NCBI GenBank assembly: GCA_965235115.1
Contig: OZ249436.1
Coordinates: forward strand, 16,742,001 to 16,806,000
Direction of reading: 5' to 3'
DNA: 64,000 bases
Origin: Laetmonice hystrix
Taxonomy: Eukaryota
In this document: positions 6,126 through 44,000 of the stretch, one piece after another
Layout: every line of letters starts with the position of its first letter
How positions within the stretch are numbered: position 1 is the first letter of the stretch
Position numbers and translations under genes: made by a program
Notes under the pieces: generated by a model
Seen by the model: only the letters and a program-made list of their open reading frames with translations
What the model was told of the DNA's origin: nothing
Databases searched by the model: none

Positions 6126-6635
6126 GATGTTTATCAAAGTAGCCTCCTTCTGCAATGACTCTCGCCAGCTCTTGTAATGTCAGTATAATTGGATAACCTC
6201 CTTCTGATCCACTGACTGGGGTGTTATTGGTCTTCAACCCCGAGTTATGTTAACGCAAGTTGGTACGGTGTCCCATAAAGCACGGTATACACGAGTACTG
6301 GAACGACGTCTCGTTGTGTCGTGTATAATCGCCAGCCGTGCAACCACCCTTGCCACGACAGTTGCCGGTTGTTGCTGGTCGTCGCTAAATAAACCATTTT
6401 ATACAGATTATTTAAAAGTAAAATTATATAGTAATTAGACATGTCCGTCCCTTATATGACACCATAAATTGGGACTAGCACCCGTCCTCTTCCGGTGTTT
6501 GCATTGTGCAGGCGTACTTGCCTGCTCCCAAGTGTTTGTTGGGCCAGGACGAACCCCGGCGCGTCAAATGTTGTTTGTTGGTGAATCACACACCACTCCC
6601 TGGTGTACTCTGGCCGAAGAGTACAAACATAATCA

Positions 6636-6835
6636 GCTGGAAGATTTCGATCCTCGGGTCAGATGTTGCTACTCGGCTCGCCGATTTCGAATCTCGGCTC
6701 GCCAATTTCGCTACTCCGGTCAAATGTTGCTACGCGGGTCGTCTGTAGCAACCACTTTTGTCATTTTTACCACTTTTGTCACAGGTCACCACTTTTGTCG
6801 CACAAAATGCCCACTTTTGTCACAGGTCACTACTA
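6636..6835 (+). repeat. Dispersed repeat (gctactcgg / cacttttgtcac motifs); inverted partner at 8470-8787
   Basis: Reverse-complement similarity to 8470-8787. Confidence 0.8.
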
Positions 6836-7002
6836 ATGCGTAGGCTCGCAAGTTATAAAATTTGAAATTATTAAAAGAAAAGGCCGGAGAAGGCGTGTAA
6901 ATGTATTTTCAACTTTTTCATTTCATTTTGAACGAAAGGGGATCCTCCCAGCCAGGTCTGCTTCGGGGCGCCGTGCATAGTAGTGGTAGTATAGAATGTA
7001 AG

Positions 7003-7140
7003 TGAGAGAGAGACAGACCGACAGACTGAGGGGAAAGAGATATAGGGAGGGCGATAGAGGGAGGGAGACAGAGAGGGAGAGAGAGAGAGGGAGAAAGGGG
7101 CAGAGAGGGAGGCATACAGAGAAAGATAGAGGGAGAAAAG
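7003..7140. repeat. GA-rich low-complexity tract
   Basis: Purine-rich run directly beyond the copy A terminator. Confidence 0.9.
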
Positions 7141-7510
7141 GTGAACATGGTCTTAGTCGACTAGATTCGTTCATCCTACCGTTCGAAGATCTGGCGTCTG
7201 AGACAACACGTGATAACCCAATGGTAGCCGCCATACGGAACTATGCCACAGATCGACCCACTGACGGGGAACGGGTTGTATTGCTACATCCCTTTAGAAG
7301 AGTCGTATCGCACTTTTCTCAGCCTTGCACCCTCCCGGCTCCAAGTGGATACTGTGTGACTCATCATACTGTCAGTGTTTGAACCATTAGCACGTGTTGC
7401 CAGACTACGACCGAACGTGGACCCATGCAAGCTCCTTCCGACCCATCAGCCAGTTCATGGGAGACAGACCCGAGTCTATCTAAGCGATACTTTCAGACGT
7501 GACCGTTCAC
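7136..7510 (-). ncRNA. Unidentified structured ncRNA gene, copy A (about 375 nt), putative type 3 Pol III transcript
   Basis: TATATAAAG begins 34-35 nt upstream. 5' GUGAAC-GGUC pairs with 3' GACC-AU-GUUCAC immediately before UUUU. No internal T4. Conserved blocks are shared with copies B and C. Confidence 0.7.
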
Positions 7511-7536
7511 TGTACATGTGACCAGTGGTTTCGTGG

Positions 7537-7850
7537 CTTTATATAGTGGGGAGGTCAAGCCGGACCTCCAGAGTGGTGTCCAACACAACCACATTGTTTT
7601 AGTAAGATAAAAACATTTTACAGGCAGCAACCAAAGCCCTGGAGGTGGAGATCCCGTCTGTAGCACTACAAATAGGGTGACCATCCATAGTTTCTTCCTG
7701 CAAGTTGATTTTCTTAAAAGATATTAATAAAAATGATAAAATCAGGGCAGCATGGACAATGAGGCACGTGACACCGACGTTCTGCATACGACAGTCGTCA
7801 CCAAGCGTCAAGGTCCACATAGTTACAGTCATTTATATACAAATTAGCAT
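7537..7850 (-). promoter_or_regulatory. Type 3 Pol III-like promoter of ncRNA copy A
   Basis: TATA 7545-7537; PSE-like ACACCACTCTGGAGGTCC 7579-7562; CACGTG 7765-7770; octamer variant ATTAGCAT/ATGCTAAT 7843-7850. Confidence 0.6.
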
Positions 7851-8469
7851 CTCACCTCCAAAACCAATTGCCTACGTGGCTGTATTTTAGTGGGTTCTTT
7901 ACCACAAAGCAATATAAGTGAACACCGACTTAAACATCAGAAGGTTTTCCAGGTAGAACAGTATTTCATATTAATCAAGACACCATTTCCACCGTCCTGT
8001 CTGTCCAAATGAAAACAAGGTGCTACAACCAAGTATGTCTGGCGGCGTCATACTGTGTACAGGTAAAACTGTTGACTGTAACTGACTGACTGACGTACAG
8101 AGTCACCGGCGTGAGGTGTGACAAACAAACCTGGACAATAGAAACCACTACCTGGTATTTATAGCACAGGAGTGTATTAGATCAGGGCGTATACTGGCAT
8201 ATCTTTCTCCTACTCTATTTACCACACAGATCTTGCTTACTTTCATACAGTAATTCAATAAATTATGCCCAGTGGTAAATTAATCACTTAATTATTGTTT
8301 GTTCATGAAGGAGTAAAAGTTTTAATAGCAACTAATGCAATGTGTGCCCCTAATTGCATGGATCTGTAGCTATATTCGTAAACCATCTCATTTCTGCCAT
8401 GCTGTCTTTTTTGGTCTTTACAAGTTTGACAAAACCGGTCAAAAATTATGACTAAAGTGATGTCCTTAA

Positions 8470-8787
8470 GAACGACAAAAGTGGGCGACGTTGTGACAAA
8501 AGTAGTGAGCTGTGACAAAAGTGGGCATTTTGTGTGACAAAAGTGGTGACCTGTGACAAAAATGGTAAAAATGACAAAAGTGGTTGGTACAGTCGTCGAT
8601 TTCGATCCTCGGCTCGCAGGTTTCGGTACTCGGGTCCAATGTCCCGAGTAGCGAAATCTGCGAGCCGAGTAGCAACATTGGACACGAGTACTGAAATCTG
8701 CGAGCCGAGGATCGATATCGACAAACCGAGTAGCAACATCTGACCAGAGTAGCGACATTTGTGACCCGAGGATCGAAATCCCCCAGC
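8470..8787 (-). repeat. Inverted copy of the 6636-6835 repeat
   Basis: gtgacaaaagtg and ccgagtagc motifs, the reverse complement of 6636-6835. Confidence 0.8.
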
Positions 8788-11700
8788 CGAGAATGTTTGT
8801 TCTTTTCCAGTCCAGTCAAAAATCACATTTGGACAGCTGCAAGGCCTCTATATACACTCACCTTTCAGAGTAGCCTACGTAGTAAGCCTTGCCGCCGCGC
8901 CAGCAAGGCTTACAGACAGCCGATGTAAATTCCTTGCCGGTCATACCACACACAGGCCAGACCACCACCGCTTGAACTGATCAACTCACTAGCATCCATT
9001 TATCTCGACAGTACTTGTGTGGAGTCCAGAAGCAGTGTTTCTAATAGTACAGAGTCAAATTCATGTCTATATAGATCACCCGCTTAACGGCGTTTTACCG
9101 GCCGCCATGTTGCCTTTGATATCCCAGCATGCATCTCTCCGACGGTCAACGAGCATTGAAATTTCTCGGTTTGAGAGATGTGACTGTCTTTATTGTGTCG
9201 CATCGTGCTTTTCCAGCTTGCAGATATGAGAGATAAGTTATTTTGAGTTTATTTATCAATATTTCATCAACATAATATGTTGATGTTGATGTATGCCATG
9301 AAAAGCCCTCCCTTGTCTCTATATTATAGAGACAAGGGAGGGCTTTTCATGGCAGACAGAGGATTTGTCCGGGTACGCTCGGAAATTCTGAACAGCGACC
9401 TTCGGCTCTGTACAGAGCACAGAGCCGAATTCTTTGGCTACTTTCAGAGTAGTGGTTGGAAATAAATGTCCCCCTATTCCAAGAAGTCATAAGTTGAACA
9501 TGACAACCGTGTCAAAATCACTGGCTTCAGCAGCGCAGCCATTTGTTGCTATAAGGGCTGGCCGGAAGTGACGTTCCAGGGCCCGTCTATTGCATGCCGG
9601 GGCTAGGCTAGACTTGGCCAAAGTAAAGGCAGCCGAGGCGGGTCGGCAACTTAACGGGGGTCAGTCCCACAGTCACAGTCACAACCAAACGCTACAGGTC
9701 CGCGGTCGGAGCCAGGGCCCGGCCCCCGGCCCAGTGAACCTGGGCTCCGTCAACATCGCACCTCCGAGCGGGACGAATTGAATGCAGGCGGCCGAAACCC
9801 ACGGCTGGAGCTTGCCCAGATCCGTGTCCACCCTGATATATCCCTTGACATCGGTAGGCTTAATTCCTATCCATTCCTCATCACTATGATCGATGGTTTT
9901 CGTTTATGTTCTAACAAATTTTGCTTATAAGCTGTCAACATTAACGCTACCTTTCGAATCGCTCAACGCAACAGGTGCGTCAGTTTTTCGTTCCTCCCAA
10001 ACTGGAGAGCAGTGGTCCGAGCATGCGCAGTGTGAGATTAGCCCAAGGAGCAGACGCTAATGGCGGCCACTAGCAGCGGAGTAGGTTCTAAGCAGGCTCC
10101 GGCACTAAAGTGCTTATATCTTAACTATTTGAACACCAATTGTGATCAAATCTTTTTTAAATTACTTAGAATATCACGGCCTGTGTGCCTGGCCTGTACA
10201 CATTGGCGGTGGACGTTTCTTTTTTAAAGAAACGAAAATAATAGAAATCTTGACAGGCAGCTAATAGGCAGGCATGTTAGGTACTTTTGGTTCACATTCT
10301 TCCGAAGGTAGCTATTGTATTAATATTAATATTAACCAATAATGTTGGCAGTGTTTAATTAGGGTACGTTTGAAAGTGACCTTGACCTTGAGACAAGATC
10401 AGATTCAGATTCCCCTACCCCCGAAAATCCCCCACAATTTGGTATTTTTCATGGTTTTTATCCCATTTAAAAAAACGCTTCAGCTCTGACCTCGGTGGTG
10501 GCCATATTGGATGTCACCAATATGTCCCCGTGGGCAATCATCTGACGAAACGTGAAAGGCCGAGAAGCAGAGAATAGTATTATAGAACCTTTGATTTTAG
10601 TGTTTTGATTGTGAAAAGAAGAAAACCATGCAGCACATGATAAGATGGTTTTATTGCCTTTGTACAAAATGAGTTGTTTCATCAACCATCCGCGTCAGAT
10701 GTTGATGAACCGTTGTCAGCCTTGAGGGTTCAGAGTCCGCAGACAACACGTGGTCTGCCTCCGTAATCGCTACTCATCGTCTTTAAACTTCTCTTTATAT
10801 ACAGTAATGACTCAATAAAATAATATTAGTATTGCATTATTATTATTATTTTCATTATTATAATAATTACAATTTTAAGCAATGACTCAATTGAAACAAA
10901 TATTATTGCATCTCCCCTTGATCGTCCACTCCAAAAACTGCCCCCAAGCGGACCTGGGCTGAACTGACAGCCAACATTCAATTTAAGATAATAATAATGC
11001 TATTACAGGGCCGTAGCCTGAAGGGGGTCAAGGGGGACAACTGCCCCCCTAGGATTTCCAGTTAAAAAAAATTGGGCCTCATATTGACACCTGGGGTGGT
11101 TTGACTAAGCCCCAAAGACGTCTTTGAACTGGTCGCTGAGCCAAAGAGGTCTTTGCGGCGACGGGTGTTTCAGTTAAGTCAGCATGAACAGGACAAACAT
11201 CTTTTAGACAAATTCACCGTCATATCTTTGTCAGGTATCTCACCCGACCTGTTTGAACTTTCTCTTCTCTCCGTGTCAGGATCTACTGGCCATAACCCCC
11301 GCCACACCGCCACCCAAAATGCAACATACTTTAAAGGAACTCCTTTTATTTTCAACCGTTTGGCTAATTCTATTGGGCAATAAATGGGCACGAGTGGTTG
11401 TTTTCTATTGACCTTCCTTGTGAAGGCCAGTTTTACCGTCGCCAGCGTGAGTCTGAGGTGTTCAGCTGGGGCAAGCTTCTAAAGGCATTGTCTTCTGCCG
11501 TTCTGCAAGAGATTGATTAAAAAATATGGCATTTCGTAAAAAAAAGTTAGGTGATCCTTTCTTTCATGGGATTTAGTAGGGCTGAAACGATACACTTATG
11601 CCACGATAAGTTACGTATCACGATACAACAAACGATACGATATATCTCACGATAGTTTTCCAGTTGTATAGTACACTTGATTTATGCTTAGACTGCCACA

Positions 11701-11866
11701 GAGAATCAGGACTCAGAAGCTTGGGTCAAAATACTGTGTAATGTATTGTGAGCTATTTCAGCGACCGATTGCACCTGAGGAATCAAGTTCTGGGACTAGA
11801 GTGTCCCAGGACACTTTTTATTATCATTTGTATCGAGCTGAGAGTAACTAAAAATTCAGAGTACTT

Positions 11867-12181
11867 AAAAATGGGGAATTGATCCTGGAGACTTGGTCCA
11901 AGTCCTATACCGTTCGAAGATCTGGCGTCTGGAGAACACACGATAGCCCATTGAGAGTCAACTGATTTGGAACCTTGCCGCAGATTGAGCCCACTGACGG
12001 GGTATGGGTTGTATTGCTACATCCCTTTAGAAGAGTTGTGTCACACTTATCGCCGAGTTACACCCTCACCTCTCCAAGTGGACACATACCAACCGAGCCG
12101 AACTCTTCGTACTGTCAGGTTTTCAACAGCGTCTGTTTCCAGACTACGACCGAACGTGGAGACCGGCGCCTCGCTGTTCCC
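11867..12181 (-). ncRNA. Unidentified structured ncRNA gene, copy B (about 315 nt)
   Basis: TATA at 12215-12207, PSE-like box 12249-12232, octamer ATGCAAAT 12499-12506. 5' GGGAA pairs with 3' UUCCC before UUUUU. No internal T4. Confidence 0.7.
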
Positions 12182-12206
12182 TACATTACTACAGTGGTGG
12201 TAATTG

Positions 12207-12506
12207 CTTTATATATCCCCCTCCAGGTCGAGGACCACAGAAAGGGTGTGGACTAAACTCAACGTTATGCTAGGATAAAAACAGAGTTCCGGCAAAATTA
12301 GAAGTATTCAAGTACTACAAGTCTTAGGTAAAGATTAAAAGCAAATTTTGATTGACATTTTACGTCTGTAAAATTTGTTTTAGTGAACAATTACATGAAC
12401 AGATCATATACATTTCTGCATTTTGAAAAACCACCCAGCAAAATCGCGACGTGAGCGCCCTCTCTAATCACGTGAGCATGTCTTGATACCGATTTGATAT
12501 GCAAAT
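12207..12506 (-). promoter_or_regulatory. Type 3 Pol III-like promoter of ncRNA copy B
   Basis: TATA 12215-12207; PSE-like ACACCCTTTCTGTGGTCC 12249-12232; CACGTG 12469-12474; perfect octamer ATGCAAAT 12499-12506. Confidence 0.65.
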
Positions 12507-12837
12507 AAGAGTGCCAGTCGCAGGGACAGACTATTATTAGACGCTCTATTGTTTGGGTTTGTTGTTTTGCGACTCACTGACGTGTGAAGAAATGTCAGTA
12601 GCCTTTGCCTGCATGAAACATCGAGCAGGCCGATGTGGATCTATAAGTATATATTTAGCCATCAGGTGTGAAGCTTGCCATGCTACAGGATCGGGTACAT
12701 ACTCTCCCACCCAAAAGAAATTAAAAGAAAAGTTCATTTCCCTACATTCTGTGAACACCAATGTACAATTTCCTGGTGTCGAACTATCACATGTGGCCGT
12801 AGCCTGCGAGGGGGGCAAGGGGGGCAACTGCGCCCTG

Positions 12838-13131
12838 GCCCCAGTTTCAGAAAGGCTCTAAGCAGCAAGCTTGAAGCTAAGCAGGGCTACGGTGGCCCAC
12901 GAGCACACAGACACTTTAACTTTATACATTGATGTTCGTGGATATTTTCACATCATTGGAAATATCACCATGGTGAAAATATTACCACCACGTTTTAATT
13001 ATTATTTCTGTGAAAATATCGACGAAAATCAATCTAGAAAGATAAAAACAGTAACGGTTTTTGTCCCTATGGGCTGCAGTAGCTCTGCTTAGCTTAAAGC
13101 CTGCTGCTTAGAGCCTTTCTGAAACTGGGCC
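12838..13131. mobile_element. Harbinger-like MITE nested in a CAGGGCCGTAGC-type element
   Basis: TIR ..cccagtttcagaaaggctctaagcagca / tgctgcttagagcctttctgaaactggg..; 3-bp TSD CTG. The reconstructed empty site resembles 11037-11060. Host element ends are seen at 11007, 12795, 13265 and 24793. Confidence 0.8.
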
Positions 13132-13750
13132 CTGGGATTTCCATTTTTTGTAACCCAGACTCCCAGCTCGACTGGCGCAATGACGCGCTGTCACGCGTTA
13201 GGCCTATCTGGTTAATGTTCATAGGACACTGCCCCCCTGGGATTTTTGGGCATGCTACGGCCCTGGAAGTGATAGGCCTACAAAATCCAACTCATTCAAT
13301 CTGATCTTCAACTGTATTTTAATTTAACGAATTCAGTAATGACGCAGAAAGAGCGCTATAAAATGTCAGCTAGTCAACATTTAGACGCGGAAAGAGCTCT
13401 ATAAAATGTCAACTATAATCAACATTTAGACACTGCAGTATTAACTGCCGATTTATGGACACGTGTCGAATCTTATGACTACTCTCATTACCCTGATCTA
13501 TCACCGTTTGAAGAAGGATATAACATGGTGACGAAGACATGCCAATCGATAAATTAGCCACCACACTCATCATTCAAAAAGTTAATCTTTTCACAGTCCG
13601 TTTGGAATCTAGCAGTTCTTTGGCAGATGAACGATAAAACATTACTAATTTTTACAACGCCCCCTTTCATCCTCATAACATTCAAGGAATAGATCTGAAA
13701 AGGCACTGGTATACAAAAGTTACTCCACATGCCGTTCCGTGTTTCACTTT

Positions 13751-23000: not shown

Positions 23001-26000
23001 ATACTGTCACTGTAACACTGGCACACGTAAAGTTAGACTCGATCACTGTAAGAAAGACACCCACACCCACACTCAAAAGTAACTTATGCTCTACTGTTTG
23101 TTAAACTGGTCAGCAACAATAAAAAAACACGCCTTATTTCGTGGATGTAAAGTTACACAGGGGAAAAGGGTGCCAGGAAACTGTAAAAAGACAACATATT
23201 GTACGAAGACCATTTTAAATTCTAGAGTGTTTAAGGCTAAAAGTTCATGCATAATAGCTATTTAGCAAATCAAAGCTCTACAAGTGCGGGTTTAGCATGC
23301 TGATTATAATCAACAGACACCGCCGAACTACTACTACATACATATTACACGCATGACAGCAAGGCGCCTCGGCCGTTTGTAAAATCAGTGCTGACACTAG
23401 TCACAATTCTTTGATTTCACGGACGTCAGTGTCCAGTTTGGTGGAGATTTAAAACCCAGCTCTGACGGTTTTATAGCGACCCCTGGCGGTCAGCTTACTC
23501 TCATGTTACGGTTACAATCCAGATTTAAAAAATTATTGTTGGGCCCCGATATTGACACTGAACCTTGACTGAACCAATCTTTGCTTTTTACTATGATCTC
23601 TAGAAACTTCTGGAAGGAAGTGTTGAAAAGGTTTAATCATCTTAATGTGTTTTCCATACTGGAGTTTCCTTCTACATGTGCTTGAAATATGCACAATAAT
23701 ATAAGTTTGCGAGTGTTGCCCAGTCGGTAAAACTACTGACACTGTACGAACCATCTAGTCCTAGCCCTCTCTATATTCATGTCTGGCGTGGGGGGGGGGT
23801 GCTATCCCTTCCAGCGCCCGATGGCACCTAAGATGATCCCGGAGGAATCAGGTTCTGGGGCTAGAGTGTCCCAGGACACTTTTTAGTATCACTTGTACCT
23901 AAAAATGGGGAACTGATCCTAGAGGCATGGTCCAAGTCCTACCGTTCGAAGATCTGCATGGCGTCTCCAGAACACACGATAACCAATTGAGAGACAACTG
24001 ATTTGGAACCTTGCCGCGGATTGAGCCCACTGACGGGATACGGGTTGTATTGCTACGTCCCTTTAGAAGAGTTGTGTCACACTTATCGCCGAGTTACACC
24101 CTCACCTCTCCAAGTGGACACATACCAACCGAGCCGAACTCTTCGTACTGTCAGGTTTTCAACAGCGCCCTTCCAGACTACGACACCTGACGTGGAGACC
24201 GGTGCCTCGCAGTTCCCTACATTTCTACAGAGGTGCAAATTGCTTTATATATCCCCCACCAGGTCGAGGACCACAGAAAGGAAAAAGGAAATTAAAAGTA
24301 TTCAAGTACTACAGGTCTTAGGTAAAGATTAAATTCTAATTTTGATAGACATTTTAAGTGAACGCCCTCTCCACATTGCAGTCACGTGTCCATGTCTTGA
24401 TACTCACTTGATATGCACATAAGAGTGCCAATCGCAGGGATAGACTATTGTTAGACTCTCTATTGTTGGGTCTTTTGTTTTGCGACTTACTGACGTGTGA
24501 AGAAATAAAAGTAGCCTAGCTTTGCCTGCATGGCACATCGAGCAGGTCCCTGCCGATCTATATGTATACGCCATCAGGTGTGTAGTTAGCTGTTAGTAAA
24601 GTATGAGTGCAATGAAATGCCTGCAACCACCGGAGCTGCAAGCGATACTACGGGGTCGGGTACATATCCCCCCCCCCCCTCCTCCCGAAGAGAATTGAAA
24701 GAAAAGTTCATTTTCCTACATTCTGAGAACACCAATGTACAATTTCCTGGTGTGGAACTATCTCATGTGGCCCTGATATATATTCTTAATGCCAGGGCCG
24801 TAGCCTGCGGCCGCGGGGGGAGGGGGGTGCAGCTTGCTAGTCGTCAGGGTTAGGCTCCTACTCTGCGCGGTTAGAACAACATATCGGTTGCGGTGACTGG
24901 GGCAGTATTAGGCAGGGTTAGGGGGACTGTTCGACAGTCTGAGTAGGAACACTTACAAACTGACAAACTCAGTTTGAGCTGACGAGTTGGAGGATGAGCC
25001 GCTGTTCTCGGACGAGAGGTAGATACTGATTTTCTGGGTCTCCCGCTCCTTAGTCTGTGCCGACGGGTAGACTACGCTGGGGCTGTCACTGCAAGACAAC
25101 ACCACATCAAAACACACCATGCTGGGCTGTCACAGCAAGACAACACCACATCAAAACACACCATGCTGGGCTGTCACTGCAGGACAACACCACATCAAAA
25201 CACACCATGCTGGGCTGTCACTGCAGGACAACACCACATCAAAACACACCATGCTGGGCTGTCACTGCAGGACAACACCACATCAAAACACACCATGCTG
25301 GGCTGTCACTGCAGGACAACACCACATCAAAACACACGGTACATCACGTTAGTCCAATTGCCGACATTTGCGACTGGAAACTTGGTACGGCTCGGTCGCT
25401 GGGAAGATAAACCAGCGGATCGGCGTCGTATAGTTTTAGGATGATAGATCGCTGGGCAACCTCACCGACTGCGCGCAATGGGCAGTCAGTAACGTTGGCG
25501 ACTGGACTACGTCCATGTAAAAATATAATAATGCCAACCCAAACTCTGGTCACAACATCATGAAACTTAAGTGAGAAACCAACAACATGGTCATGCAGGT
25601 GAGAAGTGGGGGTTTATGGATTGTGCGCGGGTTTTCTGGATTGTGCGCGGGTTTTCTGGATTGTGCGCGGGTTTTCTGGATGGTCCGTGAGTTTTGGACA
25701 ACAAAACGTCACAACGTGATATCTCCACCATTTGTAACGTGGGGATTTTTCAGACCGATTACCAAACTGAGGGGTGTAACAAATGTAAACCTTACAAAAA
25801 GTCCCTGGCAGCATTGAATGAGATAAGACATTTCAAACATCAAAAAAGCTGATATAATTAAATCTGTCATAATTTCAGTGTTGGTGTGATTTATAATCTC
25901 TCTGAAAAACATTCCAGAAAACTGCTCCCATATGACCGGCTCATTCTCAAACATACTTAAACATTTACTCGCGGCTGAGTGAGTAAATACACGACATTCA

Positions 26001-32000: not shown

Positions 32001-35000
32001 CAGGCATTCACTGCACTCACACTGACCAATGGGAGGATCTTCAGGCATTCACTGCACTCACACACTGATCAATGTTAGGATCTTCAGGCATTCACTGCAC
32101 ACACACTGACCAATGGGAGGATCTTCAGGCATTCACTGCACTCACACTGACCAATGGGAGGATCTTCAGGCATTCACTGCACTCACACACTGATCAATGT
32201 TAGGATCTTCAAGCATTCACTGCACTCACACTGACCAATGGGAGTGTCTTCAGGCAGTCACTGCTCACACACACTGACCAATGGGAGGATCTTCAGGCAT
32301 TCACTGCTCACACACTGACCAATGGGAGTATCTTCAGGCATTCACTGCACTCACACTGACCAATGGGAGGATCTCCAGGCATTCACGTACTGCACACACA
32401 CTGACAAATGAGAGGATCTTCAGGCATTCACTGCACACACACTGACCAATGGGAGGATCTGCAGGCATTCACGTACTGCACACACACTGACCAATGGGAG
32501 GATCTTCAGGCATTCACTGCACACACACTGACCAATGGGAGTGTCTTCAGGCATTCACTGCACCCACACTTAGCAATGGGAGGATCTTCAGGCATCCACT
32601 GCTCACACACGCTGACCAATGGGAGGATCTGCAGGCATTCACTGCACACACACTGACCATTGGGAGGATCTTCAGGCATCCACTGCTCACACACACTGAC
32701 CAATGGGAGGATCTTCAGGCATTCACTACACACACACACACTGACCAATGGTAGGATCTTCAGGCATTCACTGCACACACACTGACCAATGGGAGGATCT
32801 TCAGGCATTCACTGCACTCACACTGACCAATGGGAGGATCTTCAGGCATTCACTGCACTCACACTGACCAATGGGAGGATCTTCAGGTCCAGACTGACCA
32901 ATGGCTAACTACCTACCACCCTAAAACTGGCCAATCAAAGTGGGGATTAAGAAATACGTCACATTCGTACCTTGGCTGTGTCGGTATTGCGTGGCGCCGA
33001 GTTGTCCGAGGCCTGCACCACCAGTTCATAGCCGAGTCTCCGGGCACTGAGTGTCCTCTTCAAGGTCACCTCCCCGTGAGTCTCGTCAATGGAGAATATG
33101 TCATCTTCTCCTGTAAGGCATCATGACACTCCGTCATTCCATACCATTCCCACAATACGGTCACAAATATCACTCGATTGTATGTTCTTTTTCTAACTGA
33201 TAATGACATCTGCCCGAGTAACAACTCACCACTGATAGTGTAATAAAAACGCCCTCTGCCGGCTGAGACGACAAACACGGTGGCCCCGACAGCCATGTCT
33301 GACGGAATCTTCACGTCATATACGTCCTGAGGGAAGTACGGCACTCGACCTGACTCCCCGGTCACATTGACGTACACGTGTGCTCTGGATGACATCGAGG
33401 GTGAGCCAAGGTCAGACGCTTGGACAACTAGATCGTAAACTTGGGGGTCCTCAGTATCAAGGTCAAGGCCACCCATCGTGTAGATGACACCGGCATTACC
33501 TGGAAAACAAAACAATACTCTGTTTTCACTTTCACCCTCAGTATCACAGTGATCGGACAAACATTGCCACATTATTGCCTACATCCCTACATCATAGTGC
33601 TCAGCTTCTAAATCAGGAAGTCTCTCTGCTTTTGTAGGCATGTCTAGGAGTCTTAATGCGTGCCAATAAGAAAACTAGGGAGCAAGATGTGCATTTATCG
33701 GTAGGTTCCAAGCCGTGACGTCATACAACTACACAATGACGTCACAGGCGGTTGGAGTGAGGTCACACCTACCCTTGGTTTGAATGTAAAAGGGTACGAT
33801 TCCATCCTCGGAGTTCACGAGGTCATACACCACGGTTCCGTTGATGCCGGTGTCAGGGTCACTGGCTACCATGGCGATGACCTCGACCCCTGACCTTGTG
33901 ACCGAAGTGATGGTTGCTTGGTACGAGTTCTGGTCAAAGGTTGGAGCGTTATCATTCAGGTCGATGACGTCGATGATGACTTGGGTGAATGCAGACAGTG
34001 GGGGTATGCCTTCATCGTGGACCTGTACAGCCAGACACAGGTCAATCACAGACTCACAAATCACAAACTCATTGGGGCGATACGGGTAACTCAGTAGCGT
34101 CTAGGTTCAGTCTGTATTCCACTCAGTCTACAATCTTACCCCTAGGTTCAGTCTGTAGTACACTCAGTCTGCGACCTACTCTGCGACCTTACCTCTATAG
34201 GCCTAGCCAGTCTGTAGTACACTCAGTCTGCGACCTTACCCCTAGGTTCAGTCTGTAGTACACTCAGTCTGCGACCTTACCTCTATAGCCAGTCTGTAGT
34301 ACACTCAGTCTGCGACCTTACCCCTAGGTTCAGTCTGTAGTACACTCAGTCTGCGACCTTACCTCTATAGCCAGTCTGTAGTACACTCAGTCTGCGACCT
34401 TACCCCTAGGTTCAGTCTGTAGTACACTCAGTCTGCGACCTTACCCCTAGGTTCAGTCTGTAGTACACTCAGTCTGCGACCTTACCTCTATAGCCAGTCT
34501 GTAGTACACTCAGTCTGAGATCTTACCCCTTGGTTCAGCCTGTAGTACACTCAGTCTCTATAGCCAGTCTGTAGAGTCTAGTACACTCAGTCTGCGACCT
34601 TATCCCTAGGTTCAGTCTGTAGTACACTCAGTCTGAGATCTTACCCCCAGGTTCAGTCTGTAGTACACTCAGTCTGCGACCTTACCTCTATAGCCAGTCT
34701 GTAGTAGGGACAATTCTCCCTGTCAAGCCGACCAATCACAGTGAGGTCTCCAGTTGCTGCGTCAAGTCTGAAGGGCGAATCTGGAAGAGAACAGAGTTCA
34801 GAGACGTTATGTCTCCTTCGCCTTGAGGGACGTCCGTACGTAGGCCTCCTAGTAGTAGAGAAAATGAAAGATCCCTACCACACGAGGCAGTAGGGCCTAT
34901 ACGAACATGACTGGTCAGTTCAACCAGGTTTGTTGACCCACCGGGTTTGTTCTCCACAGACAGGCTGTAAACCAGCCGACTGTTCGGCCCATCCTCATCG

Positions 35001-38000
35001 CTGTCTGTCGCCCGTATGTTGCCAATGGTAACGGGCAGGACGTAGAGTCCCTCGGTGACGTCATACTCGTAGGCGTTCCTCTCAAAGCGAGGCTGGTTGT
35101 CATTGATGTCCTTGAGATTGACAAGGACGGCGGTGAAGGTTGTGCCCTGAGGGACGCCGTTATCGACGGCCTGGACTGTGAATGAAACACTGGTCTGGGT
35201 CTCCCTGTCAATACGCCGTCCTGTCGTCGTCACCGTCCCCTACAATCAACATTTACACTTCATCACACGGTCCGACAATTCTACTCAATCACTGGCTACT
35301 TTAACCTTTGGTCTCACCCAGTCAATCCGGACATCGAATTTCATGGGCACCGGCAAACTGTCAATATTTACGACCCAGTGGTTTTGGACCCCCTTCCAAC
35401 TTCCGGCACTTATATCTTATGATGTATCAACCCTAGATGCCACCATTCATCTATAATTTCCATACGTTGTAAAGTTTTAAAGACATTAAAGAATTATCTC
35501 GAGACCAGGCAGACTGAGTCGGTAGTGACGTACCGAGCGAGGGTCGTCGACCTTGAAGAGGTCCGTGTGTAGGATTGTGTACGAGATGGGAGTACCCGGT
35601 CGGCGGGTCGACGCTTCCACAGTCGTCACGTACGAATCTGAAACAATAACTGCGTCACTACAGCGTCTAAACAATCATGGGGAAACCTACAACTCAGTCA
35701 CTTCACCTTCGACACGTCACGAGGAACCTACATCATTATGTCTGATGGTTAGGAGATTATTATCAATTATTATATTATTTTCCGGCTCCATATCGCATGT
35801 TTCTAATTTGATTGGCATCGGAATATTCCAAACATTGCAACCATTCCCACCTGCTGGCACCTCCTCCTCGAGCGCCACCTGGTAGGTGACGCGGGTAAAC
35901 TGCGGTGTGTCGGCGTTGACGTCATCAATGTTGACGGCGAGTAGAGCTTGGCCGACGTTTGGCGGTTCGCCCTTGTCAGAGGCCGTCAAAGTCACGTATA
36001 GCGTACCGTTACCGTCAGTGATAAGTCCGCGCTGCAGCAGCTCCGCCTTCACGATTGGCTCAGCTACCGTCACCAGCCCGGTGCTGCCATCTATCGCAAA
36101 ATAGTCGCTGGCTCCTTGGCTGCTGTCTAAGTCATAGACAAGCTGTCCGTTTTGACCTTGGTCGCCGTCGATGGCCTTGGGGTAGAGTAGAACGGCGCCG
36201 ACCGGCGTTCGCTCCAGGATGTTGATGGTAAAATATTGCTGCTCAAAGGTGGGCGTGTTGTCATTGACGTCAATGACGTCAACGATTACCGTGGTGACGG
36301 TGGAAAGTGACGGGTAGCCAAGGTCACTGGCGGATACTTCAAGGACAAATCGTGGCATCTCCTCACGGTCCAAGGGCCGGTCATTAGACAGCCAACCCGT
36401 CTGGCGCTCTACGGTGAACGGTACTGTGGACAAGGTCAAACATAATGTTGTCAAAAGGTCATGCAACTTCTACTCCAACTGTCAGACTTAATATGTCAGT
36501 TAACTATCATGTGTGCATTGTACATACGACATGTCAATGATAAGACTGACCGATTAACTTGAGCAGCCTTACCGTCAAGTCTGAGTAATCTTAATTGGCG
36601 AGCTATGACATCGGTACAAGTTTGAGTAATCGTACCGTTCTTGGTGAGATACGACAGTTTGAGTAATCGTACCGTTCATGGTGAGATATGACAGTTTAAG
36701 TAATCGTACCGTTCTTGGTGAGATACGACAGTTTGAGTAATCGTACCGTTCTTGGTGAGATATGACAGTTTGAGTAATCGTACCGTTCTTGGTGAGATAC
36801 GACAGTTTGAGTAATCGTACCGTTCTTGGTGAGATATGACAGTTTGAGTAATCGTACCCTTCTTGGTGAGATATGACAGTTTGAGTAATCGTACCGTTCT
36901 TGGTGAGATATGACAGTTTGAGTAATCGTACCGTTCTTGGTGAGATATGACAGTTTGAGTAATGGTGAGATATGACAGTTTGAGTAATCGTACCGTTCTT
37001 GGTGTGATATGACAGTTTCAGTAATCGTACCGTTCTTGGCGAGATAATTATGACAGTTTGAGTAATCGTACCGTTCTTGGTGAGCACCGAGTATTTCACC
37101 TTGCCATTGTCCCCGTCGTCAGGGTCAGTCGCGTGCACGGTGCCGAAGTAGAGGACTTGACGTTCGTTCTCGGGGACGCTGAAGGTGTAGACGGACTGGT
37201 CAAACCGAGGCGGGTTGTCGTTCCTGTCCGTCAGTGAGATATTGACCACTGTCCGTCCCTCTAACTGACCAGGGTCCACTCCTCCATCCACTACCAGCAC
37301 GTCCAACAGGTAGACCGACTTCACCTCCCGGTCCAGGCCACCAGCCACCAGAATATCCCCTAACATCAAGTACAACATTCATCATTCAAATACAAACTCA
37401 CATGTTGTCAAGTCTTCCGGACTTTCCCCAAATATCCATGCAGCCACACTTTCAATGACCTTTTCGTTAATCACAGCCACTGGTGCTGAACTCTTGGGGT
37501 GTACACCCTGGCAAAAATCACCACCATGTTTCAATTAACCGGCCTTTGCTTTTCAAGAGAAATCTTCCAGGAATAGTCTATGACCTTTTGAGCTTTTTGG
37601 TACCTAACTCGGAAGGAATTATTCAATTAACGGGGGGGGGCATCGAACCCTCCCACCCCTCCCCGCCGCTATAACGATATTGTTTATGCCTATTGTTAGA
37701 TGTTAGATCTATATCCACCTGTGAACCTGTCGATGTAGAACCTGCCATCCGATCCTGCCGTGATACTGTACGACAGTCGGTTGTTAGGGCTGACGTCAGC
37801 GTCCGTGGCGATCACGTGACCGACCAGCGTGTTGGTGGCCACGTCCTCGCTCACCGACATGGTGTATGACGTGGCGCTGAACGCCGGCGGGTTGTCATTC
37901 CGGTCAGTCAAGGTCACGGTCAAGGTCGTCGTGTTGCGCAGGCTCCCCTCCGTCCCATTCCGGTCCTCCGCTACCACCTGACAACCACAGAGGTCAAACT

Positions 38001-41000
38001 AAGATCACCTCAGGTTAGTGAAAAATTTCGGTAAGAAATTAGGGGGGGGCACCCCCTAATTGACTTCACCCTTAAACTGTTCCTGTTTTCTGGTAGCACC
38101 TATCTCGACGTGATTGTCTTTAATATCTCCCGGGATAAAATGACATGATACTTGGAGGATGTAGAGCTTTCTTTCTTTTTAGGGCCAACTTACATGATCT
38201 GGATCCTAGACAAGTAACCCTGTGTACCTATCAACCCATCAACCTAACAACTCACCTCCACGGTCACGGATGGCACCGTCTCCCGGTCAAGCTGACCACT
38301 ACCCTGCTCGCTGACCGTCACAACTCCCGACACTGGGTTAATGGCGAACCAGGCGGCCGTGCTGCCACCTAGCGAGTAGCGTACCTCTGTGTTGTAGCCA
38401 ACATCTCGGTCAAACGTCTTCACGGGTGGAAACTGTTTGGGGGGAACACCGAGAAACGGGAACAAGTTCAGGTTTACAGCAAGAACGACTGCCCTCTCAT
38501 GGTTTTCATCCCCACAACTTCACAAAGGGCATAGATTATAGATGAGGCAAATGGGTCGTCGATACGTTACACAAGGATATAAAGTAGGAGTAGGTCATTC
38601 CAATTTCATTACTCCAATCTACCATGACACATTTAGCTATCCTACAAACCTACAACAACCACTAAACCGGTGAACGTTGGACTACTAACAACAAACTCGC
38701 AATTGTGTGCAACAATTCCAATATCTGGTTGGCTGCACAACGTAAAAGCAATTACCATGTACAGCACTGGCAACAAAAAGCAACACTTTATCAACAGTTA
38801 CTGTGCAAGCATACAACAAGAATAATGTCCCACTAAGTAGGACAATCGGCCTGTAGCATGGCACCGTTTTATACATCAATTGGCAAGATTTAATTTGAAG
38901 CATGGGACAGCAACACACAACAGCAGCTGACAACACTAGCACGGGGCACAATCACAACAACCAACACTCAGTTTGACGCAAGGTGGCGCCACCGAGCTGT
39001 ACTCACTTTGTCCGGACCGACCTGACCACAACAAAACATACACCGACTCCTCAGTTACCATCTGACATAACAAACATCTTTCTGTCTGTCTGAGTTCAAT
39101 TAATGTCGTCTGACTTGAAGTCAGAAACGCATTGATCCCAACATGTAGACCCTTACCCGAACTACGTCGTGCTTGACCGAAACCTTCATCATCATCTTTG
39201 AGAATTAATCATGGAACACCAAACACCGAACAGTAAATTAATTTACCTAGATATACGGAAACTATCCCACATGTACACGGTATGTATCCAAGATATAAAC
39301 GGTAACTATCCTGAGGAATGAGCGTGTGACTCACCACGAATACGGTTGTCCCTGGCGGCGCCTGCTCGACCACCTCGCCCATGTAGGGCGTGTCCATAAA
39401 CTGGGGCGCGTTGTCATTGACGTCATCTACTTCAATCTCCACTTCACACGTGTTCTGGGGGGCACAGAGAATACATTACACCGAGAAGCCTTCAGGTCAG
39501 GCCAGTTTAAACTTAGAAATCTCAGCTTTCTCAAAACAAAAAGATAATTAGGAGGAGAAAGTTTTCCTGCACCCTTACCATGCGCGGAGGAACCCCCATG
39601 TCAGCTGCTGTTACAATCAACGTATGACGTGGAGCCGTCTCCCGGTCCAACTCCCCAACTACCAGAACCTGTCCAACTTCAGGCTGGAGACAACAACAAG
39701 ACTTTGTCAATGAATATTCGCCAATTCCCTGTGAACGGATGTGAGGGTTGATTGTGCCATCAGAACCTGGTGAGACACTAGACTATGTATACGAGTAACA
39801 TAGACCATTATTTTCTGTTGTGTTATATCAAGTATTACGACATCAAGTACTGTGTGACGTCACCTCGGAGATATTGAAGAGTCCTCTTGCACTTCGTGAC
39901 GTCAGATAATACGTCACGCGTCCGTTGTCACCACCGTCACGGTCAGTGGCCACCACCTGACCTACGACCTGACCCAACTGACCAGAGAGGTCATTCTCCG
40001 TGACCCGGAAGAAGTAGACCTCCTGTGAGAACACTGGGCTATTGTTGTTCATGTCGAGGAGGCGAATCGTCAAGGCAACCTGTAAACATCCACTCATAAG
40101 TTAAAAATTCCTTATCTACAAGATAAAACCAGACCTAGGAAATGGGAGCAGGTCATGATTGGCAGGAGACATGTGGCAGGTGGCCTGTTGTAGGTTACCT
40201 GGTCTGAATGTTTGCCGTCCGTCACGTGGGCATGCAGGTCGTAACGGTCGACCTGCATGGCGTCCAGTGGCCAATTAACGCGTACTTCCCCCGTCTGGGG
40301 GTCGATACTGAACGGACCTGCAAAGAGGTGCATTGTTTAAATGGTTTATTTGTATTTTCTGATTCAAGTAGGTAGGCCTATGTATTCTTGTAAATCTAGG
40401 CGTCGTCGGGACTTATCATCGGCTGCTCATATTTCAGACTCTAACAGACACAAAAGTACAAAACGACCTACTTTCTTCCACAAGGCTGTAGGTGAACAGG
40501 GAGGCTGAATCGGCGTCTTGGGCAGTAACCTTGGCAATAGACGTCCCCGGGGGCGTTCCCTCCGTAATGGTGACGTCATAAACAAGGTCAGGAAACGACG
40601 GAGGGTTATCGTTGACGTCAGCAATGTAAATAGTTGCCTGGTAACGTAAACACTCATTATTTTTACCTCCAAAAGTAGGCTAAATACTAAATAATTGTAT
40701 CCTGGTAATGGAACGGAATCTGCAGTAAAAATAAACTGTGCGGACGTTTGTTTGTTTGTCTGTTTGTTTGTCTGTCTGTCTGTCGGTATGTCTGTCTGTC
40801 TGTCTGTCTGTCTGATCGTTTGAGTGTGTTTTCCTGGTACTGACCGTGGCTGTACTGGTAAGAGCAGGCCGGCCCTGGTCTGTTGCCAACACCTTCACTT
40901 CATAGATGGCGCTCTGGTTTACCGTCTTTAGCCCGTCCTTTTCTCGGTCAAGTTCTCTCGTCACCCGGAGCTCACCCTGAAACAAAGGGTCACTTCACTG

Positions 41001-44000
41001 AACCTGAACAATATATCCGATACTTGGCAGCACTGCAGGAGCTGTCCGCCTCCAAACTAGGAGAAACTATGTAGAGGTAACGTACATGCGTGGTTTGCTA
41101 ACTCACCACAGTGTAGTCGTTCCGTATCGACGTCAGAATCATAAACTCAGGACTTTCGCTGCCAATGGAGAAGACGACCTTGGCGTTGTCGCCTAGGTCA
41201 GCGTCCGTAGCGCTGACCATGAGTAGGAGGTCTAAGCTGACCGACCCTACAAACCCAGGGGTATCAGTACTGAGTGAAATACGTGAACTGGCGCCATATC
41301 ATGGTGGTTTTAGAGTCATATCCATTGTCATAGTCAGAGCCGGACTCTTCAATAATATATCGTGCACAACTCCTAGCAGCATAATCTTCTTAAAAGAAAT
41401 TATACTTTGTAAAGTTGATTAATGGTATATAGCTTTTTGGGACTGGGCAGTTTTGAAAACCAGTATGTACCGAATATGACCGGATATGACTCGTATGACT
41501 GACACGATCCGACAGTTTAGTTTACCACTATCCCTTGTTTATAGTATACCCGTATCATACTTAGGATGTGTTTATAGTATACCCGTATCATACTGAGGAT
41601 GTGTTTATAGTATACCCGTATCATACTGAGGGTCTGTTTATAGTACTATACCCGTATCATACTGAGGATGTTATAGTATACCTGCATCATACTGATGGTC
41701 TGTTTATAATATACCCGTACCATACTGAGGGTTTGTTTATAGTATACCCGTATTATACTGATGGTCTGTTTATAGTATACCCGTATCATACTGAGGATGT
41801 AGTTTACCTTCGGTCGTGTTGACCATGTATGGCTGACCGACAAACTGGGGAGCGTGGTCGTTGTCATCTTCCACCGTAACGTACAGGGTGGCTGTGTTCT
41901 GAAACCGACCAATGGCATGCTCTCATTACCGACACTACAGGGAACCGACCAATCGAGACCCTCATTGGCCGTCACTGCAGGGAACCGACCAATCGAGGCC
42001 CTCATTGGCCGTCACTGCAATAGGCCAACCAATGACAGACCCTCACTGGCATCACTACAGGGAACCGACCAATCGAGACACTCATTGGCCGTCACTGCAA
42101 GAGGCCAACCAATGACAGACCCTCACTAGCATCACTGCAGGGAACTGACCAATCGAGACCCTCATTGACCGTCACTGCAATAGGCCAACCAATAACAGAC
42201 CCTCATTGGCATCACTGCAGGGAACCGACCAATCGAGACCCTCATTGACCGTCACTGCAATAGGCCAACCAATAACAGACCCTCATTGGCATCACTGCAG
42301 GGAGCCCACCTCTGGTAAGGTTTCATTCGGCGTCTCTTCCATGTTCAAATTCATAAATCCGCAGGTGAGCATATAAGTCATGGTACACACACACTATCCC
42401 AAGCAGACATATAACTTACCTGGTGGCCAGCTGTATCCGTTGCCATAACAACCAGTGAATACCTGTCCTTAGTCTCCCTGTCCAGCACAACTGGTGTGTC
42501 GTCGCATCTAACGGTCACCATACCTGTGGTCTCATCCACGTCAAACATCTCTGTGTCACCTGTAAAACAAAACACGCATCTGTAAAACAAAATATCCTTC
42601 TGTAAAACAAAATATCCTTCTATAAAACAAAACATCATTCTGTAAAACAAAACATCATTCTGTGAAACAAAACATCTTACCTGCCTCCAGGGGGTATTTA
42701 ATCTGCCCCTCATCCAGCCGGTCAGGGTCACGACACCACCCCCCCCCCCCACCCCACTGTCCAGGAGTTAGGGTGAGAGTTGATCTTACCTGCTTCCAGG
42801 GTGTATTTAATCCGCCCCTCATCCAGCCGGTCAGGGTCACGAGCTCTAACCAGCGCCACCTCCTGGCAGCCGCCCGCACTCTGGAGGACACGAACCGACA
42901 CAAACACTTGTAGCTGTACTCTCACAGAATACCAACCAGAACACCAACACGAATAATGCTGAACGTGCTGTAGGGGCAAGGTCTTTCCCTTCGTCTTTTA
43001 AAAAAGTGGCTCAGAACTGTACTATATTCTAAGATCAGGTAAAGCCCCTCCGTACAAGACGACGAACGCTGACTGTGACTGACCTCTGTGACGCGTGACG
43101 TGACGGAGGATGCGTTAAAGACGGGCGAGTTGTCATTGACGTCAATGACCTTGAGGAGGAGTTCGGCCGGTTGACTGTAGTGACGGCCGTCGCTCGCACC
43201 GATCTGTGGGAAACATCTAGTATAATTTATTGGGGAAATGAACGTCCAACAGCTAGACCTAGAATCAACTGGGGAAATGGACGTCCAACAGCTAGACCTA
43301 GAATCAACTGGGAAAATGGACGTCCAACAACTAGAATCAACTGGGGAAATGGACGTCCAACAGCTAGACCTAGAATCAATTAGGGAAATGGACGTCCAAC
43401 AGCTAGACCTAGAATCAACTGGGGAAATGGACGTCCAACAACTAGAATCAACTGAGGAAATGGACGTCCAACAGCTAGACCTAGAATCAACTGGGAAAAT
43501 GGACGTACAACAACTAGAATCAACTGGGGAAATGGACGTCCAACAGCTAGACCTAGAATCAACTGGGAAAATGGACGTCCAACAACTAGAATCAACTGGG
43601 GAAATGGACGTCCAACAGCTAGACCTAGAATCAATTGGGGAAATGGACGTCCAACAGCTAGACCTAGAATCAACTGGGGAAATGGACGTCCAACAACTAG
43701 AATCAACTGGGGAAATGGACGTCCAACAACTAGAATCACCCGGGGAAAAGTTATTCAGTCCAAATTGCTCTGAACGTCTTATGCTAGATCCAGGAGTGCC
43801 ATTAATCAATAATAAAATGTGACTACTTCTACTTGTGGTATTCGACTGATATTTTCCCTGAGTTACGGGGACTTCACCTTAAGCCGGTAGGTGTCGGACA
43901 TGTTGGCTGGCATGACGTCACGATCCAGGGGCCGCTGCAGGCTGATGACAGCCACGTTGTCCAGTGATTCTACCTTGAGGTGATCTCGGTCGTTACGGTC

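What the first reader, a model, noticed from the sequence alone, without database searches (positions are those of the whole stretch)
11867..12181. Compensatory base changes define a long rod with a branched head, GNRA hairpin and possible pseudoknot
Seen, B versus A: GAAGAGUU/AACUCUUC versus GAUGAGUC/GACUCUUC (U-A to C-G), and GUGUC-CACUU/AAGUG-U-GACAC versus GUAUC-CACUU/AAGUG-C-GAUAC (G-C to A-U). The closing stem differs wholly in sequence but is retained (GGGAA/UUCCC, GGGAACUG/CAGUUCCC, GUGAAC/GUUCAC). Stems CGUUCG/CGAACG, UCUGG/CCAGA and CUGAC/GUCAG are shared by A and B, as is the GGG-A-UGUA-GCAA-UACA-A-CCC tetraloop hairpin. Inference: loop GGGUGU/GGGUGC may pair with AUACCC/GUUCCC (pseudoknot with a covarying terminal pair), and UAYGA..UCUAAA resembles an 11-nt tetraloop receptor. 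Such tertiary motifs hint at a ribozyme-like or RNP-scaffold fold.
Basis: partly seen in the sequence, partly recalled or inferred. Interest (0 to 1): 0.8.

Follow-up and report, generated by a model that had tools for sequence, protein, structure and literature searches.

The report
Transposon-borne U6-promoter folded RNA gene
An invertebrate genome holds about a thousand copies of an unrecognised 315-375-base folded RNA gene with its own U6-type promoter, riding inside two kinds of DNA transposon and a histone-linked repeat; its stems are kept by compensating mutations, but its job and even its expression are still unshown.

Summary
The helices are real, on the minus strand. B (12181 to 11867) is a complete type-3 RNA polymerase III gene. 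It has the PSE start and TATA box of this genome's own U6, 7SK and MRP genes, and it ends in a T-run. Paralog A (7510 to 7136) is about 75% identical in the core. A fold predicted from A alone survives B's substitutions: 7 pairs broken against 17.7 expected, 6 double compensations against 0.9. More compensations occur within each family. The pseudoknot and tetraloop receptor are not supported by covariation, and nothing points to a ribozyme.

The genome has 964 matches to a shared core motif and 607 to a B-specific motif. B rides in a 2-kb hAT5-like non-autonomous transposon. A rides in a Ginger-like one and in a third, H2B-linked tandem unit. The RNA diverges less than its flanks and is exchanged between carriers. 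Canonical U6, 7SK, MRP, RNase P and SRP genes exist elsewhere in the genome; Rfam has no match; no homologue was found outside this genome. Best reading: a new transposon-borne Pol III RNA selected for its fold, probably a protein-binding decoy or scaffold. Expression is unshown.

The parts
11867..12181 (-). Family B RNA gene body, 315 nt, predicted +1 at 12181, ending in T5 terminator (11871-11867)
   Evidence: no internal T4 run on this strand, one on the opposite strand
12208..12215 (-). TATA box of B, at -34
   Evidence: U6 -30, 7SK -34, MRP -33 in the same genome
12232..12250 (-). PSE-like element of B (ACACC at -68, then a 10-base word shared with this genome's U6 PSE)
12499..12506 (-). 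Octamer motif at -325 (possible distal element); a CACGTG box lies at -293
   Evidence: function inferred; octamer absent from the other six promoters scanned
11994..12118 (-). Conserved branched head: CUGAC/GUCAG stem, receptor-like motif (12111-12107 with 12031-12026), three stacked stems, GCAA hairpin (12025-12006), possible pseudoknot (12065-12060 with 12005-12000)
11911..12156 (-). Rod from CGUUCG/CGAACG inwards; two inner helices each carry two compensatory changes between A and B
11006..13265 (.). Carrier of B: about 2-kb non-autonomous DNA transposon, TIR beginning CAGGGCCG, 5-bp target duplication (hAT5-like by its ends; no transposase seen)
   Evidence: 5 of 6 loci with both ends have a 5-bp duplication; this window copy is the exception
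12833..13136 (.). Nested palindromic insertion specific to this copy of the B carrier
7136..7510 (-). Family A RNA gene body, 375 nt, same core plus a larger 5' domain
7538..7580 (-). Promoter of A: TATA at -35, PSE-like element from -69
6744..8591 (.). Carrier of A: 1.85-kb non-autonomous DNA transposon, about 91-nt TIRs, TGT...ACA ends, 6-bp duplication here (Ginger-like by its ends; no transposase seen)
   Evidence: 7 of 14 loci with both ends have a 5-6-bp duplication
23901..24217 (-). Copy C: decayed family B gene (start of PSE deleted, two rod helices damaged)
23809..24772 (.). Remnant of the B carrier around copy C, 78-83% identical to a full carrier

Best explanation
A portable Pol III cassette (PSE, TATA, RNA, T-run) makes a 315-375-nt folded RNA. 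Non-autonomous DNA transposons of two different kinds, and a third repeat unit, carry it and have multiplied it to about a thousand copies. Copies exchange the cassette by recombination or conversion. Selection on the RNA's fold has acted along the carrier lineages. The most likely job is protein binding without catalysis: an abundant decoy or scaffold that blunts a host RNA-surveillance or silencing factor, or otherwise favours mobilisation, as adenovirus VA RNA does for its virus. Shown: the promoter and terminator anatomy, the compensated helices, the carriers, the copy counts, the lower divergence of the RNA and the mosaic copies. Inferred: transcription, protein binding and any benefit to the carriers.
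For: Promoter: ACACC at -64 to -69 and TATA at -30 to -35 in U6, 7SK, MRP, A, B and the H unit; 18 of 20 copies picked only by a 28-nt core keep PSE, TATA and T-run. Fold under selection: (10 of 64 pairs with two-sided change; slid controls 0-2). Stem variants shared by 3 or more copies keep pairing in 11 of 15 cases, rare ones in 22 of 64. In 15 A-carrier copies the RNA diverges 3.3-4.2% and upstream DNA 6.1-7.3%. Between carriers, L064 and L063 differ at 7 of 374 RNA bases but 14 of 73 proximal and 50 of 164 distal promoter bases. Carriers. Of 28 B copies classified, 27 have B-carrier DNA on at least one side; of 48 A copies, 44 have A-carrier DNA upstream, 2 are H unit, 1 is mosaic, 1 has neither. 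The other type-3 genes are not amplified like this: 7SK 1, MRP 1, RNase P 2, U6 21 matches (lower bounds). That points to the RNA, not merely its promoter type. VA RNA as a precedent for an abundant Pol III decoy: PMC6599070 (passages).
Against: No expression data. No protein partner, target or autonomous transposase was identified. A trans-acting decoy would also help carriers that lack it, so selection for keeping it in cis is not explained. The longest uninterrupted helix is only 7-10 bp, short for a classical dsRNA mimic. Most rare stem variants break pairs (42 of 64), so many copies are decaying. The H-unit tandem arrays look like the genome's own U6 and SRP arrays, which fits a host gene. 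Copies L001-L060 were chosen as best matches to the window copies and over-represent young copies. Only one genome could be examined.
Confidence: 0.42

Rival explanations
1. A lineage-specific host housekeeping RNA of an unrecognised RNP (a 7SK-, Y- or vault-like scaffold). It is encoded in tandem arrays such as the H2B-linked unit, and transposons captured it passively; conversion from working genes keeps the passengers tidy.
For: 133 exact RNA/H-unit junctions, many in tandem arrays (one run on C3 with a period near 3.5 kb). U6 and SRP genes of this genome are also arrayed. Sharp conservation boundary at +1 in L064, and mosaic copies L041 and L066, show exchange between carriers.
Against: No B copy outside its carrier was identified among 28 classified (1 had neither flank assigned), yet B carries its own compensatory change (3 of 28 copies). 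H units are scattered over many contigs and hold a broken H2B gene in L064, which suggests mobile DNA. Three captures of one RNA, with no similar amplification of 7SK, MRP or RNase P, is hard to get passively.
Confidence: 0.3
2. A relic. The fold was selected in the past; today the carriers spread for their own reasons, or benefit only from the bound promoter, and the RNA is a passenger homogenised by conversion.
For: Modest folding z-scores. Many broken rare variants. Decayed copies such as C. Three B copies have the TATA box interrupted by another element.
Against: Two-sided changes fixed inside young subfamilies (10 of 36 A copies, 3 of 28 B copies). RNA about half as diverged as its flanks within one carrier family. 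The three interrupted copies formed one group in 0% of 200 bootstrap trees, so they do not show a promoter-dead lineage spreading.
Confidence: 0.18
3. A new ribozyme, self-cleaving or otherwise, whose tertiary core is the branched head.
For: The head is the most conserved part. It holds a GNRA loop, a receptor-like motif and a possible pseudoknot, features common in catalytic RNAs.
Against: No Rfam self-cleaving ribozyme match at E<=10. No hammerhead core word. Pseudoknot broken by U-U in 35 of 36 A copies. A transcript with defined Pol III ends has no evident need to cleave itself (inference).
Confidence: 0.1

Closest known systems
Type-3 Pol III ncRNA genes (U6, 7SK, RNase MRP, RNase P, Y RNA)
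   Same: Upstream PSE plus TATA, purine start, T-run end, about 300 nt, 5' end paired with 3' end as in MRP (class definition in PMC12193147, passages).
   Different: No Rfam match. Canonical U6, 7SK, MRP and RNase P genes exist elsewhere in the genome, and U6, 7SK and MRP share no significant sequence with it. About a thousand copies inside mobile DNA. Y and vault RNA genes were not looked for in the genome.
SRP (7SL) RNA
   Same: About 300 nt, long interrupted rod with a branched head and a GNRA loop.
   Different: No Rfam SRP match; 25 canonical SRP genes score 245-266 bits elsewhere. No Alu-domain or helix-8 motif seen (motifs recalled).
Adenovirus VA RNA
   Same: Pol III RNA of a selfish agent, ends paired, central junction with a pseudoknot. 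GGGU and ACCC words, the VA tetrastem (PMC6599070, passages), are present in both A and B.
   Different: Twice the length; external promoter rather than internal box B (no box B on the RNA strand); no Rfam VA match; cellular genome. The four-base match is short enough to be chance.
Cassandra TRIMs (5S rRNA in a non-autonomous element) and Pack-type gene capture
   Same: A Pol III RNA sequence or host gene carried by a non-autonomous element (Cassandra seen only in search listings; details recalled).
   Different: Here the carriers have TIRs, the promoter is external, the RNA is of no known family, and the same family rides different carriers.
hAT5 and Ginger/GingerRoot DNA transposons (the carriers)
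   Same: hAT5: 5-bp duplication (PMC12730594, passages). Ginger: TGTNR ends, 40-270-bp TIRs, 4-5-bp duplications (PMC2836005, passages). GingerRoot: 6-bp duplication, 100-150-bp TIRs (PMC6839031, passages).
   Different: Assigned by ends only; no transposase was found or sought. The A carrier mixes 5- and 6-bp duplications.
Telomerase RNA
   Same: Pol III type-3 genes in ciliates and plants; multi-domain RNA with a pseudoknot.
   Different: No template: longest match to four tested telomere repeats is 4-5 bases. Protostome telomerase RNAs, annelids included, have an H/ACA domain (PMC8480181, passages); no 3' ACA box here.

Membership tests
Type-3 Pol III gene | PSE near -65 and TATA near -30, upstream of +1 | tested here: met
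   against the genome's own U6, 7SK and MRP
Type-3 Pol III gene | T-run terminator at the end and none inside | tested here: met
   for A and B
Type-3 Pol III gene | Transcribed by Pol III in vivo | not testable with these tools
   no RNA run listed
7SK | Match to RF00100; GAUC/GAUC stem and 3' hairpin before the U-tail | tested here: not met
   no match; canonical gene at C7, 58.3 bits; motifs recalled
RNase MRP / RNase P RNA | Match to RF00030 or RF00009 (P4 pseudoknot, conserved regions) | tested here: not met
   canonical genes at 99.7 and 143-145 bits elsewhere
SRP RNA | Match to RF00017 | tested here: not met
Telomerase RNA | Template of about 1.5 telomere repeats | tested here: not met
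   (repeat words recalled; this animal's telomere repeat was not determined)
Y RNA / vault RNA | Rfam match; separate canonical genes | tested here: inconclusive
   no Rfam match, but the models may miss distant invertebrate forms and the genome was not searched for them
Known self-cleaving ribozymes | Family model match or catalytic core words | tested here: not met
Known self-cleaving ribozymes | Self-cleavage in vitro | not testable with these tools
   needs experiment
SINE / retroposed RNA | Internal promoter; element ends at the RNA ends with target duplication | tested here: not met
   promoter external; shared DNA extends about 0.4-1.1 kb on each side to TIRs
Transposon guide RNA (omega or bridge type) | Segment matching element ends or running out into flanking DNA | tested here: not met
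   longest match to own carrier 9-10 bases, at shuffle level; RNA ends inside the element
hAT5 (carrier of B) | 5-bp target duplication with TIRs | tested here: met
   5 of 6 loci
hAT5 (carrier of B) | hAT transposase in an autonomous partner | not tested
   no partner search was run
Ginger / GingerRoot (carrier of A) | TGT...ACA ends, long TIRs, 4-6-bp duplication | tested here: met
   (7 of 14 loci)
Ginger / GingerRoot (carrier of A) | Integrase-like transposase in an autonomous partner | not tested
   no partner search was run

The most novel reading that the evidence does not exclude
A new class of animal Pol III RNA that works as a transferable accessory gene of DNA transposons: a structured RNA decoy against host silencing, swapped between unrelated transposon superfamilies and kept by selection at the level of the elements. 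It would be the transposon counterpart of a viral VA RNA.
Probability: 0.3. Interest if true: 0.9.

Novelty: categorically new. Interest (0 to 1): 0.72.

Why it matters
Few type-3 Pol III RNA classes are known in animals (the review read lists U6, 7SK, RNase P, MRP and Y; PMC12193147, passages). An additional 300-400-nt class with a compensated fold would be new whichever rival is right. If the carriers gain from it, non-autonomous DNA transposons can carry a working RNA gene and trade it between superfamilies, which five literature searches did not turn up. The system is directly testable: two natural paralogs, exact predicted ends, hundreds of natural variants and three carriers. The novelty rating refers to the RNA family and the arrangement; the promoter type and the carrier types are known.

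Tried and rejected
Expression: no RNA holder listed; the three runs laid behave as DNA (flat depth near 60 in unique sequence) and say nothing on expression. Their summed depth is higher over the RNA than over the carriers, but that is no copy number and A and B cross-map.

Homologues elsewhere: viral contigs 0, 0 and 1 match for three patterns, the one match unpaired; prokaryotic genomes 0; metagenomes 29 matches to a loose pattern, none extending beyond the pattern (best 8.2 bits). These collections hold little animal DNA, so the blank does not show that the family is confined to one species. Earlier findings of the scan: nothing in 4 look-ups.

Other families in the genome: a short-spacer pattern found only 10 matches, which look like deletion variants of A. 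No covariance model was built, so more distant paralogs are not excluded.

Plus-strand reading rejected: promoter and T-run are on the minus strand, several one-sided changes give G-U pairs only on that strand, and the plus strand has internal T4 runs.

The 261-codon ORF of the H unit has no Pfam match, no homologue among 744 candidates, none in the 1.84-billion library and only sub-threshold Atlas hits; it was dropped as a partner protein.

Guide-like complementarity to the carriers: chance level. A second possible long-range pairing between the lower junction and the rod's internal loop is fully paired in 33 of 36 A copies but has a mismatch in all 22 anchored B copies and shows no covariation. 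Structure-aware MAFFT did not run, so the statistical test used a sequence-only alignment, which misplaces two helices and is conservative.

Full report
Setting. The window lies on contig C1 of a 627-Mb, 35-contig animal assembly and holds exons of a cadherin gene further right. The H2B tail and the 7SK sequence look annelid-like to me; that label is recalled and was not tested. Rfam finds nothing in the window at its cut-offs and only chance hits at E<=10 around A and B.

The observation. A and B are about 75% identical over a core of about 250 bases. Single-sequence stability is modest: z = -0.49 (B), -1.51 (A), -1.62 (L064). The case therefore rests on compensation.

Compensation between families. 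I predicted the fold from the A consensus alone and mapped B on it with a sequence-only alignment. Of 72 confident core pairs 17 change; 7 break against 17.7 when the substitutions are shuffled (P=5e-5), and 6 are two-sided against 0.93 (P=2e-4). The reverse direction is weaker: 53 pairs, 11 changed, 7 broken against 12.9 (P=0.015), 3 two-sided against 0.70 (P=0.027). RNAalifold on 23 copies (12 A, 11 B, hand-picked for diversity from 64 distinct full-length copies) gives 71 pairs, 13 with two-sided change. My hand structure has 96.7% of cells paired and 10 of 64 pairs with two-sided change; slid controls have 35-50% and 0-2 pairs. That structure was derived from these sequences and the rows are related, so those figures are descriptive. 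A helix that MAFFT misaligns, just below the lower junction, is fully paired in 34 of 36 A and 26 of 28 B copies with two further two-sided changes.

Compensation within families. The stem under the head loop exists in three paired versions: two in A (26 and 10 of 36 copies) and one in B. The GCAA hairpin has a swapped pair in 3 of 28 B copies. So many copies decay, while variants that spread respect the fold.

What does not hold. The pseudoknot has a U-U mismatch in 35 of 36 A copies, and its 'covarying' pair is U-G in 24 of 28 B copies. It is possible, not shown. The receptor-like motif resembles CCUAAG-UAUGG (PMC1464144, passages), but it is nearly invariant and abuts the only conserved GNRA hairpin. 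The closing stems differ by one pair, not wholly.

It is a Pol III gene. The genome's own U6, 7SK and MRP genes have ACACC at -64 to -68 and TATA at -30 to -34. A, B and the L064 copy have ACACC at -68 or -69 and TATA at -34 or -35; B shares a further 10-base word with the U6 PSE, and A has the same word with a one-base insertion. The RNA strand has no T4 run until the end; the other strand has one inside. Of 20 copies chosen only by a 28-base core, 18 keep PSE, TATA and T-run. This matches the type-3 promoter described in PMC12193147 (passages). Transcription itself is not shown.

It is not one of the known ones. Canonical 7SK (1 match), MRP (1), RNase P (2), U6 (21) and SRP (25) lie elsewhere (counts are lower bounds). 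U6, 7SK and MRP share no significant sequence with A or B. There is no telomere template among four repeats tested, and protostome telomerase RNAs are of the H/ACA type (PMC8480181, passages). Y and vault genes were not searched.

It is amplified in mobile DNA. A 28-base core motif has 964 matches with up to 2 mismatches, control 0. A B-specific 24-base motif has 607, control 0. DNA searches scored 40 of 1597 (B) and 40 of 1313 (A) candidates, at 96-100% identity. B sits in a 2-kb element (window 11006-13265) with TIRs and a 5-bp duplication in 5 of 6 loci that show both ends. A sits in a 1.8-2.5-kb element (6744-8591) with 91-base TIRs, TGT...ACA ends and a 5-6-bp duplication in 7 of 14. By their ends these resemble hAT5 (PMC12730594, passages) and Ginger/GingerRoot (PMC2836005 and PMC6839031, passages); no transposase was sought. 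Outside the RNA the two carriers share nothing detectable. A third context, the H unit, joins an A-type RNA to a different 3' flank and an H2B gene or remnant. It has 133 exact junction matches, many in tandem arrays; its ends are unknown. Of 80 loci, 76 could be classified. A: 38 with A-carrier DNA on both sides, 6 upstream only, 2 H unit, 1 mosaic, 1 neither. B: 21 both sides, 6 one side, 1 neither.

The RNA is the conserved part. In 15 A-carrier copies the RNA differs from the window copy at 3.3% and 4.2% of sites, upstream DNA at 6.1-7.3%. Between carriers, L064 and L063 differ at 7 of 374 RNA bases, 14 of 73 proximal and 50 of 164 distal promoter bases. L066 has an H-type distal but A-carrier-type proximal promoter, and L041 has an H-type promoter with an A-carrier 3' end. 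Cassettes are therefore exchanged between carriers, at least sometimes at the DNA level.

Mechanism. The RNA has no guide-like match to its carriers, no hammerhead core and no helix longer than 10 bp. It is unlikely to be a guide, a known ribozyme or a plain hairpin precursor. A compact, interrupted rod with a conserved branched head, made from a strong promoter in very many copies, fits a protein-binding decoy or scaffold. VA RNA is the precedent for a selfish agent using such an RNA against dsRNA-handling proteins (PMC6599070, passages). I give this reading 0.42, a captured host RNP RNA 0.30, a relic 0.18 and a new ribozyme 0.10. That this is a real Pol III-type gene whose fold has been under selection I put near 0.9.

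Novelty and limits. Five searches of the paper library showed no description of such an RNA or arrangement in their listings. Subscription papers, Repbase reports and all supplementary files were not seen; a repeat library may already hold the carriers, and a supplement may list the RNA. No homologue was found outside this genome, but the collections at hand hold little animal DNA. Only 80 of roughly a thousand copies were read, 60 of them chosen as best matches to the window copies, and the large arrays on C1 beyond L080 were not read.

Noticed in passing
L009:1849-2726, L022:1850-2700, L023 (about 1850-2703): The same 850-880-bp TIR element with a TA duplication (mariner-like, label recalled) has inserted at the same TA of the TATA box in 3 of 31 B loci. 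The inserts are 89-92% alike and the three hosts formed one group in 0% of 200 bootstrap trees, so the insertions look independent. This may reflect an open promoter in the germ line or only a liking for TA runs.
   Followed up: partly
L064:1115-4028: H unit: 2.9-kb tandem repeat with a broken H2B gene, its promoter (octamer, TATA), a duplicated H2B 5' piece and a 261-codon ORF without homologues; related units form arrays of 2.5-4.7 kb period on many contigs.
   Followed up: partly
L084:1501-1799 (G000:C7:18450595-18450893): A compact 299-nt 7SK gene, the only match found in this genome (58.3 bits); useful as a further invertebrate 7SK.
   Followed up: no
L085:1501-1703 (G000:C5:17815803-17816005): A short 203-nt RNase MRP RNA gene (99.7 bits).
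   Followed up: no
G000:C2, C12, C21 (U6) and C10, C12 (SRP): U6 and SRP genes lie in tandem arrays with periods of about 1.5-1.7 kb and 1.6-2.2 kb.
   Followed up: no
window 33066-52483, minus strand: Exons of a large cadherin gene (Fat/Dachsous-like, label recalled), with introns full of tandem repeats.
   Followed up: no
window 6469-8826: The A carrier is nested inside another element with degenerate inverted repeats.
   Followed up: no
window 9550-10230: A repeat with very high summed depth in the three laid runs, as high as the RNA gene, between the A and B carriers.
   Followed up: no
window 7050-7135 and A-carrier copies: A CT/TC microsatellite follows the terminator in most A-carrier copies but not in H-unit copies.
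   Followed up: no
upstream of U6, A, B, C and L064: A CACGTG box lies 170-350 bases upstream in 5 of 7 promoters scanned, absent from 7SK and MRP.
   Followed up: no
G000:C2:10817223-10817358: Three B-motif matches 56 bases apart: a piece of the RNA has become a minisatellite.
   Followed up: no
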